In this document: positions 6,270-6,292 of the stretch, piece by piece
Layout: each line of letters begins with the position of its first letter
Numbering within the stretch: position 1 is the stretch's first letter
Origin: Enterobacter phage vB_EholP_HHH
Strand: one strand, 5' to 3'
Sequence record: PQ122694.1
DNA: 39,582 bases
Notes under the pieces: generated by a model
Database searches by the model: none
The model's input: the letters and a program-made list of their open reading frames with translations, nothing else
What the model was told of the DNA's origin: nothing
Made by a program: the position numbers and the translations under genes

Positions 6270-6292
6270 ACTTAACTATCACTATAGGACTC
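6270..6292 (+). promoter_or_regulatory. Phage RNAP promoter immediately upstream of the RNAP gene
   Basis: TTAACTATCACTATAGGACTC, a full match to the family core. Predicted +1 G at 6287, 74 nt before the gene 1 ATG. Confidence 0.6.

What the first reader, a model, noticed from the sequence alone, without database searches (positions are those of the whole stretch)
6270..6292. Phage-type promoter directly upstream of the phage RNA polymerase gene (possible positive autoregulation)
TTAACTATCACTATAGGAC at 6270-6292 is a full member of the 12-promoter family used by this phage's own RNAP, and it sits 74 nt before the gene 1 start codon. In T7 and T3, gene 1 is transcribed only by host RNAP from the A promoters, and no phage promoter precedes it. 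A phage promoter here would let the RNAP amplify its own synthesis and extend gene 1 expression into the middle and late period. Two direct repeats of aagtgaaagac (6308-6318, 6329-6339) lie in the leader between this promoter and the ATG.
Basis: partly seen in the sequence, partly recalled or inferred. Interest (0 to 1): 0.6.

Follow-up and report, generated by a model that had tools for sequence, protein, structure and literature searches.

The report
Phage promoter just before its polymerase gene
A genuine phage-polymerase promoter sits 74 bases before the polymerase's own gene in this K1F-like phage, but all its close relatives have it, public records already annotate it, and T7 and T3 also have a phage promoter upstream of that gene, so it is real but fairly ordinary.

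Summary
Window 6270-6292 is positions -17 to +6 of a full member of this phage's 12-site, all plus-strand promoter family. It scores 31.7 bits on a leave-one-out matrix. The family scores 21.4-36.7 and the best non-family site scores 13.0. The start base G6287 lies 74 nt before the gene 1 ATG at 6361.

The window is a circularly permuted K1F-like (Kayfunavirus) genome. The site is not special to this phage. All 21 Kayfunavirus and Caroctavirus loci surveyed have a cognate promoter 75-87 nt before gene 1. The site changes with polymerase specificity (AACTAT, AACCCT, GGTACA cores), which argues for function.

Public records already annotate it as a predicted promoter in CR44b and CR8. Phage gh-1 has an annotated promoter, phi1, about 97 nt before its polymerase gene.

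Both have the phage promoter phiOL upstream of gene 1. Of 55 T7-, T3-, K11- and KP32-type loci, none has a gene-1-proximal promoter, but about 50 have a phiOL-type one.

Self-amplification of the polymerase follows from the gene order but has not been tested. The direct repeats map to the 3' arms of a hairpin like the R1 RNase III site; its 5' arm is the promoter itself.

Already known; low to moderate interest.

The parts
6270..6292 (+). Gene-1-proximal promoter for the phage RNA polymerase, positions -17 to +6, with +1 at G6287
   Evidence: Exact sequence. Leave-one-out matrix score 31.7 bits, within the family range. Orthologous sites in 21 of 21 related loci. Annotated as a predicted promoter in CR44b and CR8.
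6287..6360 (+). 74-nt leader of the phage-initiated gene 1 transcript
   Evidence: Sequence. No terminator-like site found in it.
6280..6334 (+). Two-tier hairpin resembling the R1 RNase III site of T7 and T3. The 5' arm of the lower stem is the promoter from -7 to +6. The 3' arm is GAGACTTAAGTG at 6323-6334.
   Evidence: Minimum free energy -15.7 kcal/mol, z = -3.28, 0 of 200 shuffles fold as well. The architecture matches the annotated T3 R1 site and the homologous T7 intergenic region, folded the same way. The stem recurs in K1F, GA2A, GW1 and the Dev2 group.
6308..6318 (+). Direct repeat copy 1, AAGTGAAAGAC. It supplies the 3' halves of the upper stems (AGU and AGACC).
6330..6340 (+). Direct repeat copy 2, AAGTGAAAGAC. 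Its AAGTG pairs with the promoter core CACT(A)T in read-through RNA.
6348..6352 (+). Ribosome-binding sequence AAGGA for gene 1
   Evidence: Sequence. Conserved in all relatives.
6361..9042 (+). Gene 1, the single-subunit RNA polymerase (893 aa)
   Evidence: PHROG 414, E = 0. Same start as the annotated K1F, GA2A and CR44b genes.
5938..6264 (+). Upstream early ORF (108 aa, unknown function). It ends 5 nt before the promoter.
4082..4111 (+). Candidate host sigma-70 early promoter (TTGACA, 18 nt, TAGTAT), about 690 nt from the physical left end
   Evidence: It matches the position of the host promoter annotated in GA2A.
11382..11409 (+). Terminator-like hairpin after the ligase gene, at the position of the T7 early terminator TE
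   Evidence: 12-bp stem followed by a T-rich tail. Ligase identified.
9797..9819 (+). Next family promoter, downstream of gene 1, followed by an RNase III-like hairpin
2674..2696 (+). Family promoter near the physical right end (phiOR-like)
11525..11547 (+). Family promoter
12496..12518 (+). Family promoter
14839..14861 (+). Family promoter, the weakest member at 21.4 bits
16820..16842 (+). Family promoter, followed by an RNase III-like hairpin
21030..21052 (+). Family promoter
23851..23873 (+). Family promoter
24849..24871 (+). Family promoter with a GGGAGA start
29547..29569 (+). Family promoter
36833..36855 (+). Family promoter

Best explanation
Window 6270-6292 is a functional middle-type (class II-like) promoter for the phage's own single-subunit RNA polymerase. 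It is the orthologue of a gene-1-proximal promoter shared by all Kayfunavirus and Caroctavirus phages, and it is comparable to phi1 of gh-1.

Proposed sequence of events:
1. Host polymerase starts at the left-end promoters and makes the first gene 1 mRNA.
2. The new phage polymerase then initiates at G6287.
3. It transcribes gene 1 and the downstream genes, and reads on past the early terminator.

By gene order this is a self-amplifying loop. T7 and T3 have the same topology through phiOL. In this clade the single upstream phage promoter sits next to gene 1 instead of at the left end.

In host-initiated read-through RNA, the transcribed promoter core pairs with GAGACUUAAGUG, which includes the start of the second direct repeat. 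This completes a hairpin like the R1 RNase III site. Phage-initiated RNA starts inside the 5' arm and lacks most of the lower stem.

Shown here: family membership, position, conservation, co-variation with polymerase specificity, and the predicted fold.

Inferred: actual initiation, the size of any feedback, and RNase III cleavage.
For: - Family membership: 31.7 bits on a leave-one-out matrix, against 13.0 for the best non-family site.
- Family structure: 12 sites, all plus strand, none expected by chance.
- Conservation: 21 of 21 Kayfunavirus and Caroctavirus loci carry a cognate promoter with 0-1 mismatches in 18, located 75-87 nt before the gene 1 ATG. In 55 other Studiervirinae loci the best match within 300 nt has 5 or more mismatches.
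- Co-variation: the site is AACTATCACTATAGG in the K1F type, AACCCTCACTATAGG in GW1, L025 and L030, and GAAGGTACACTATAGG in CR8. Each matches that phage's promoter downstream of gene 1.
- Polymerase loop: the residues at T7 positions 748 and 756 are N/N in the window, D/R in GW1 and L025, and K with an altered loop in CR8.
- Experimental support for the family: K1F polymerase with its cognate promoter works as an orthogonal expression pair (PMC12218169).
- Access to gene 1: no terminator-like site lies between the promoter and the ATG.
- Hairpin: z = -3.28, the same two-tier form as the annotated T3 R1 site.
- Dev2 clade: an 11-nt perfect complement of the promoter lies downstream, reached by 1 of 5000 shuffles.
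Against: - No transcript or in vitro data exist for this site. I found no Kayfunavirus transcriptome paper.
- The GGACTC start and the T at -14 place the site among the non-consensus members, so its strength is unknown.
- The T7 counterpart phiOL is described as only weakly used (PMC6171733). An upstream cognate promoter therefore need not give meaningful feedback.
- The hairpin has almost no informative covariation. RNAalifold on the MAFFT alignment did not recover it. It is absent from L025 and CR8.
- No Rfam family matches the region.
Confidence: 0.7

Rival explanations
1. The site works mainly as a phiOL substitute. It would be a cognate promoter used to prime DNA replication, or to let the phage polymerase take over pulling the genome into the cell. 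Any gene 1 transcription would be a by-product.
For: The Kayfunavirus and Caroctavirus loci have no left-end phiOL-type site. About 50 of 55 other Studiervirinae loci have phiOL but no gene-1-proximal site, so the two positions look mutually exclusive. PMC6171733 links phiOL to polymerase-driven genome entry. The T3 record places its primary replication origin next to a promoter that flanks gene 1.
Against: The site lies about 2.9 kb from the physical left end. It enters the cell only after host transcription has already pulled in the early region. No origin-like feature was tested or seen. Any initiation here must transcribe gene 1 whatever its primary role.
Confidence: 0.12
2. The site binds or fires only weakly in vivo and contributes little to gene 1 expression. 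Host-made, stable, processed mRNA would supply essentially all the polymerase, as in T7.
For: T7 phiOL is considered weakly used. The start is GGACTC, not GGGAGA. The Dev2 clade carries an extra deviation at -2, T to A.
Against: A weak, unimportant site should not be kept with 0-1 mismatches in 21 of 21 loci. It should also not be re-fitted to three different polymerase specificities.
Confidence: 0.12
3. The sequence is conserved as RNA, as the 5' arm of an RNase III processing hairpin. Its resemblance to a promoter would be secondary.
For: The promoter from -7 to +6 forms the lower stem of a stable hairpin. In the Dev2 clade the deviant -2 base makes a perfect 11-bp stem.
Against: CR8 and L025 keep a full cognate promoter at this place without that stem. 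The -17 to -8 part lies mostly outside the stem, yet it still follows polymerase specificity.
Confidence: 0.04

Closest known systems
Gene-1-proximal predicted promoters annotated in Citrobacter phages CR44b (HG818823, 1814-1836) and CR8 (HG818824, 3356-3378), and the identical unannotated site in K1F (DQ111067, about 2476-2498)
   Same: Same position: intergenic, 74-87 nt before gene 1. The sequence is the same or changed to fit that phage's own promoter type. The leader is the same.
   Different: Nothing substantive. This window is another member of the genus. CR8 has a different specificity core.
phi1 of Pseudomonas phage gh-1 (NC_004665, 939-961)
   Same: An annotated cognate promoter about 97 nt before the polymerase gene. 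It matches gh-1 phi4 closely, and a GGUC/GACC hairpin follows it.
   Different: gh-1 has no early genes before gene 1, so phi1 is also near the left end. Its promoter specificity is different.
phiOL of T7 (position 405) and T3 (366-388)
   Same: A cognate phage promoter upstream of gene 1, on the same strand, with no annotated terminator between. It gives the same self-transcription topology.
   Different: phiOL lies about 400 nt from the left end, upstream of the host A promoters and about 2.6-2.8 kb from gene 1. It is non-consensus and considered weak. The site here is 74 nt from gene 1 and about 2.9 kb from the left end.
E. coli C promoter plus RNase III site R1, directly before gene 1 in T7 and T3
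   Same: A gene-1-proximal promoter followed by a two-tier hairpin in the same intergenic slot.
   Different: In T7 and T3 this promoter is for the host polymerase. Here it is for the phage polymerase.
Engineered T7 autogene, and T7 strains with gene 1 moved behind a T7 promoter (Dubendorff and Studier 1991; Endy et al. 2000; cited from memory, not read here)
   Same: A polymerase gene placed behind its own promoter, giving positive feedback.
   Different: Those are artificial constructs. Here the arrangement is natural and found across the genus.

Membership tests
K1F-type (Kayfunavirus) single-subunit RNA polymerase promoters | 23-bp match to the family consensus (CT[A/T]AACTATCACTATAGG) from -17 to +6, with G at +1 and +2 | tested here: met
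   31.7 bits on a leave-one-out matrix, against a family range of 21.4-36.7 and 13.0 for the best non-member. The consensus matches the one reported for phage Sparklingdew (PMC13298934).
K1F-type (Kayfunavirus) single-subunit RNA polymerase promoters | Same strand as the genes, and located between genes or at gene ends | tested here: met
   All 12 sites are on the plus strand. This one lies between the stop at 6264 and the ATG at 6361.
K1F-type (Kayfunavirus) single-subunit RNA polymerase promoters | Kept at the orthologous position, and changes with the polymerase specificity loop | tested here: met
   21 of 21 loci. Three specificity types with matching loop residues.
K1F-type (Kayfunavirus) single-subunit RNA polymerase promoters | Initiation by the cognate polymerase | not testable with these tools
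   This needs in vitro transcription or 5'-end mapping. The only indirect support is that the K1F polymerase and promoter pair works in vivo.
phiOL-type left-end promoter (T7, T3) | Lies within a few hundred bases of the physical left end, upstream of the host A promoters | tested here: not met
   The left end maps to about window 3393. The site is about 2.9 kb in, downstream of the candidate host promoter at 4082-4111.
phiOL-type left-end promoter (T7, T3) | Cognate promoter upstream of gene 1, same strand, no terminator between | tested here: met
T7-group RNase III processing site (R1) | Two-tier hairpin with an internal loop, in the intergenic slot before gene 1 | tested here: met
   6280-6334 folds with z = -3.28. 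It has the same form as the annotated T3 R1 site and the homologous T7 region.
T7-group RNase III processing site (R1) | Base pairs supported by compensatory change among relatives | tested here: inconclusive
   RNAalifold found no compensatory pairs for this stem. Single folds recover the stem in 4 of 6 lineages. The Dev2 clade gives one suggestive case.
T7-group RNase III processing site (R1) | Cleavage by host RNase III | not testable with these tools
   This needs mapping in rnc+ and rnc- hosts.
Positive autoregulatory loop (autogene) | The gene product initiates at a promoter that drives its own gene, with measurable self-amplification | not testable with these tools
   The topology is present. 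The activity and gain of the loop are unknown.

The most novel reading that the evidence does not exclude
The promoter doubles as the 5' arm of the R1-like hairpin, so the two polymerases would make structurally different gene 1 mRNAs. Host-initiated read-through RNA carries the full stem and would be processed by RNase III. Phage-initiated RNA starts inside the arm and cannot form the lower stem. In the Dev2 clade this loses an 11-bp perfect stem. The two RNAs could then differ in processing, stability or translation, giving a built-in switch in polymerase output between the early and middle periods.

A broader reading is also open. Studiervirinae may always keep exactly one cognate promoter upstream of gene 1, either at the left end (phiOL) or next to the gene. 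That would mean self-transcription of the polymerase gene is a selected, general feature of the subfamily.
Probability: 0.15. Interest if true: 0.5.

Novelty: already known. Interest (0 to 1): 0.22.

Why it matters
If active, the site makes the polymerase gene both an early and a middle gene. Polymerase supply would then no longer depend only on host transcription, which the phage's own gp2-like inhibitor (12336-12497) shuts down.

That matters for quantitative models of T7-type infection. It also matters for using K1F-type phages and polymerases as engineering chassis.

It also corrects a textbook simplification. Across 76 Studiervirinae loci, nearly all have a cognate promoter somewhere upstream of gene 1. 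The clades differ in where it sits.

For this particular window the finding adds no new kind of element.

Tried and rejected
- The K1F genome paper and the Chen and Schneider promoter paper could not be read because they are not held. I cannot say whether the K1F authors discussed this site.
- Literature searches for a phage promoter upstream of gene 1 and for Kayfunavirus transcriptomes gave nothing useful. The Kvp1, SH4/SH5, APEC-phage and phi15 papers say nothing about the site.
- Rfam found no family in 5900-6500.
- RNAalifold on a MAFFT alignment of 10 leaders proposed a long-range helix between the 5' end of the leader and the ribosome-binding region. It had no compensatory pairs and only -4.7 kcal/mol, so I rejected it as unsupported.
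- Folding only the phage-initiated leader is no better than shuffled sequence (z = +0.8). The significant structure appears only when the promoter core is included.
- A short hairpin spanning the end of the upstream ORF and the promoter's upstream half (6251-6281) is not conserved in relatives by inspection, so I dropped it.
- SP6 has no good cognate site before its polymerase gene. The best candidate has 5 mismatches and lies about 1.3 kb upstream.
- No sigma-70-like promoter equivalent to the T7 C promoter was found near 6230-6290.

Full report
**What the window is.** The polymerase region matches 614 phage records, best of all K1F-like phages of genus Kayfunavirus at up to 95% identity. The window starts with the large terminase gene (817-2580). 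It also carries the polymerase (6361-9042), ligase, a gp2-like inhibitor of host polymerase (12336-12497), gp2.5 and the lysozyme (14158-14613). The left ends of GA2A, K1F, CR44b and Dev2 align from about window 3393. The record is therefore a circular permutation of a linear T7-type genome, and the site lies about 2.9 kb from the physical left end.

**Checking the observation.**
The interval 6270-6292 is the standard span from -17 to +6, with +1 at G6287.
- A fuzzy search finds 12 sites, all on the plus strand, with consensus CTAAACTATCACTATAGGA. No shuffle of the window gave any match.
- A matrix built from the other 11 sites scores this one at 31.7 bits. Members score 21.4-36.7, the next non-member scores 13.0, and the background is -52.6 +/- 12.6.
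- The T at -14 is shared with two other members. The GGA start is shared with six.
- The direct repeats are exact at 6308-6318 and 6330-6340.

**How widespread it is.** The 221-bp intergenic stretch is found in 221 phage records, 220 of them nearly full length. I fetched 25 close loci and 80 more distant loci from IMG/VR. For 76 loci that had enough sites, I derived the promoter core within each locus.
- All 21 loci of the Kayfunavirus and Caroctavirus clade carry a cognate site with 0-1 mismatches in 18, located 75-87 nt before the gene 1 ATG.
- None of those 21 has a site near the left end.
- In the other 55 loci (T7, T3, Berlin, K11 and KP32 types), the best match within 300 nt of gene 1 has 5-9 mismatches, which is background level.
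- About 50 of those 55 have a phiOL-type site 1.3-4.4 kb upstream.
- K1F itself has the identical site.

**Evidence that it is used.** The site follows the polymerase.
- In GW1, L030 and L025 it reads AACCCTCACT(A/G)TAGG.
- In CR8 it reads GAAGGTACACTATAGG.
- In each case it matches that phage's promoter downstream of gene 1.
- The polymerase residues aligned to T7 N748 and R756 are N and N in the window, and D and R in GW1 and L025. In CR8, K aligns with N748 and the loop around R756 has a one-residue deletion. From established work on T7 and T3 polymerase, recalled rather than read here, these residues read bases -11 to -9.
- A non-functional sequence would not be re-fitted three times.
- K1F polymerase and its promoter work as an orthogonal pair in bacteria (PMC12218169).

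**Prior knowledge.**
- GenBank records annotate this site as a predicted promoter in CR44b (1814-1836) and CR8 (3356-3378).
- gh-1 carries an annotated phi1 at 939-961, about 97 nt before its polymerase gene. It is nearly identical to gh-1 phi4.
- A 2026 paper on the Kayfunavirus phage Sparklingdew lists eight CTWAACTATCACTATAGG repeats. It places one at the 3' terminus of SPD_007, and SPD_008 is the polymerase gene (PMC13298934).
- The T7 and T3 reference records both annotate phiOL upstream of gene 1. They also annotate a host promoter, C, directly before gene 1, and the T3 record adds the RNase III site R1 there.
- PMC6171733 describes phiOL as weakly used and linked to polymerase-driven genome entry.
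Only the word 'directly' survives.

**The leader and the repeats.** Folding 6280-6350 gives a two-tier hairpin at 6280-6334 (-15.7 kcal/mol, z = -3.28, 0 of 200 shuffles as good). It has the same form as the annotated T3 R1 site, the homologous T7 region, and hairpins at 260-320, 9810-9865 and 16832-16887 in this window. Those three hairpins and this one share the 5' motif GACTCAAGGTC, which is over-represented: 16 matches against 1.25 expected.

The lower stem pairs the promoter from -7 to +6 with GAGACUUAAGUG (6323-6334). This 3' arm includes the start of the second direct repeat. The first repeat supplies the 3' halves of the upper stems. This gives a structural reason for the repeats.

The leader that starts at +1 folds no better than chance.

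The stem recurs in K1F, GA2A, GW1, L030 and the Dev2 group, but not in L025 or CR8. In the Dev2 clade only the gene 1 promoter carries T to A at -2. An 11-nt perfect complement of -10 to +1 lies downstream, which 1 of 5000 shuffles reaches. Kc166A keeps a 7-bp version, by inspection.

RNAalifold did not recover the stem and found no compensatory pairs, and Rfam has no match. RNase III processing is therefore a reasoned guess, not a result.

**Transcription unit.** Candidate host promoters lie near the left end, at 4082-4111. No convincing terminator lies between them and gene 1. A strong terminator-like hairpin follows the ligase gene at 11382-11409, where T7 has its early terminator. From general knowledge of T7, the phage polymerase reads through that terminator.

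**Interpretation.** The site is most likely an active middle-type promoter. By gene order, it lets the polymerase transcribe its own gene. The gain of this loop is unknown.

A simple evolutionary reading is that one cognate promoter upstream of gene 1 is ancestral. Early-gene cassettes then accumulated downstream of it in T7 and T3, leaving it at the left end. In K1F and CR8 they accumulated upstream of it, leaving it beside gene 1. In gh-1, which has no early genes, the two positions coincide. This is inference.

**Verdict.** The element is already known at genus level. Interest is low to moderate.

Noticed in passing
window 3062-3315: A perfect 127-bp tandem duplication (2.0 copies, 100% identical) just left of the inferred physical genome end at about 3393. 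It could be real or an assembly artefact near the terminal repeat.
   Followed up: no
window 1-3393 versus 3393-39582: The record is circularly permuted. It starts in the late region, with the terminase gene at 817-2580. The true left end aligns to about 3393 in four relatives.
   Followed up: yes
window 260-320, 9810-9865, 16832-16887: Three stable two-tier hairpins (z from -3.2 to -4.2) share the 5' motif GACTCAAGGTC and the form of T7 and T3 RNase III sites. Two of them directly follow family promoters, which suggests a repeated promoter-plus-processing-site cassette.
   Followed up: partly
window 21061-21078 and 29566-29574: Partial second promoter-like sequences lie right after two family promoters: TAAGATATGACTATAAGA (13 bits) after the 21032 site, and GACTATAGG after the 29549 site.
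   Followed up: no
L019-L023, L026, L004, L117, L118 (Dev2-type Kayfunavirus), about 94 nt before the gene 1 ATG: In this clade only the gene 1 promoter reads CACTAAAGG (A at -2). An 11-nt perfect complement of the promoter core lies about 45 nt downstream.
   Followed up: partly
window 3682-3730: Short ACCTACAGT repeats lie near the left end. They resemble the (acctacagtcaac)3 repeat annotated in CR8.
   Followed up: no
L073 (T3-type locus), 617 and 1569 nt before the gene 1 ATG: A T3-type phage locus shows cognate promoter matches with 0-2 mismatches inside its early region, closer to gene 1 than a normal phiOL.
   Followed up: no
window 3393-6361: No gp0.7-like kinase ORF is evident in this phage's early region. 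Relatives Dev2, GW1 and CR8 have one.
   Followed up: no
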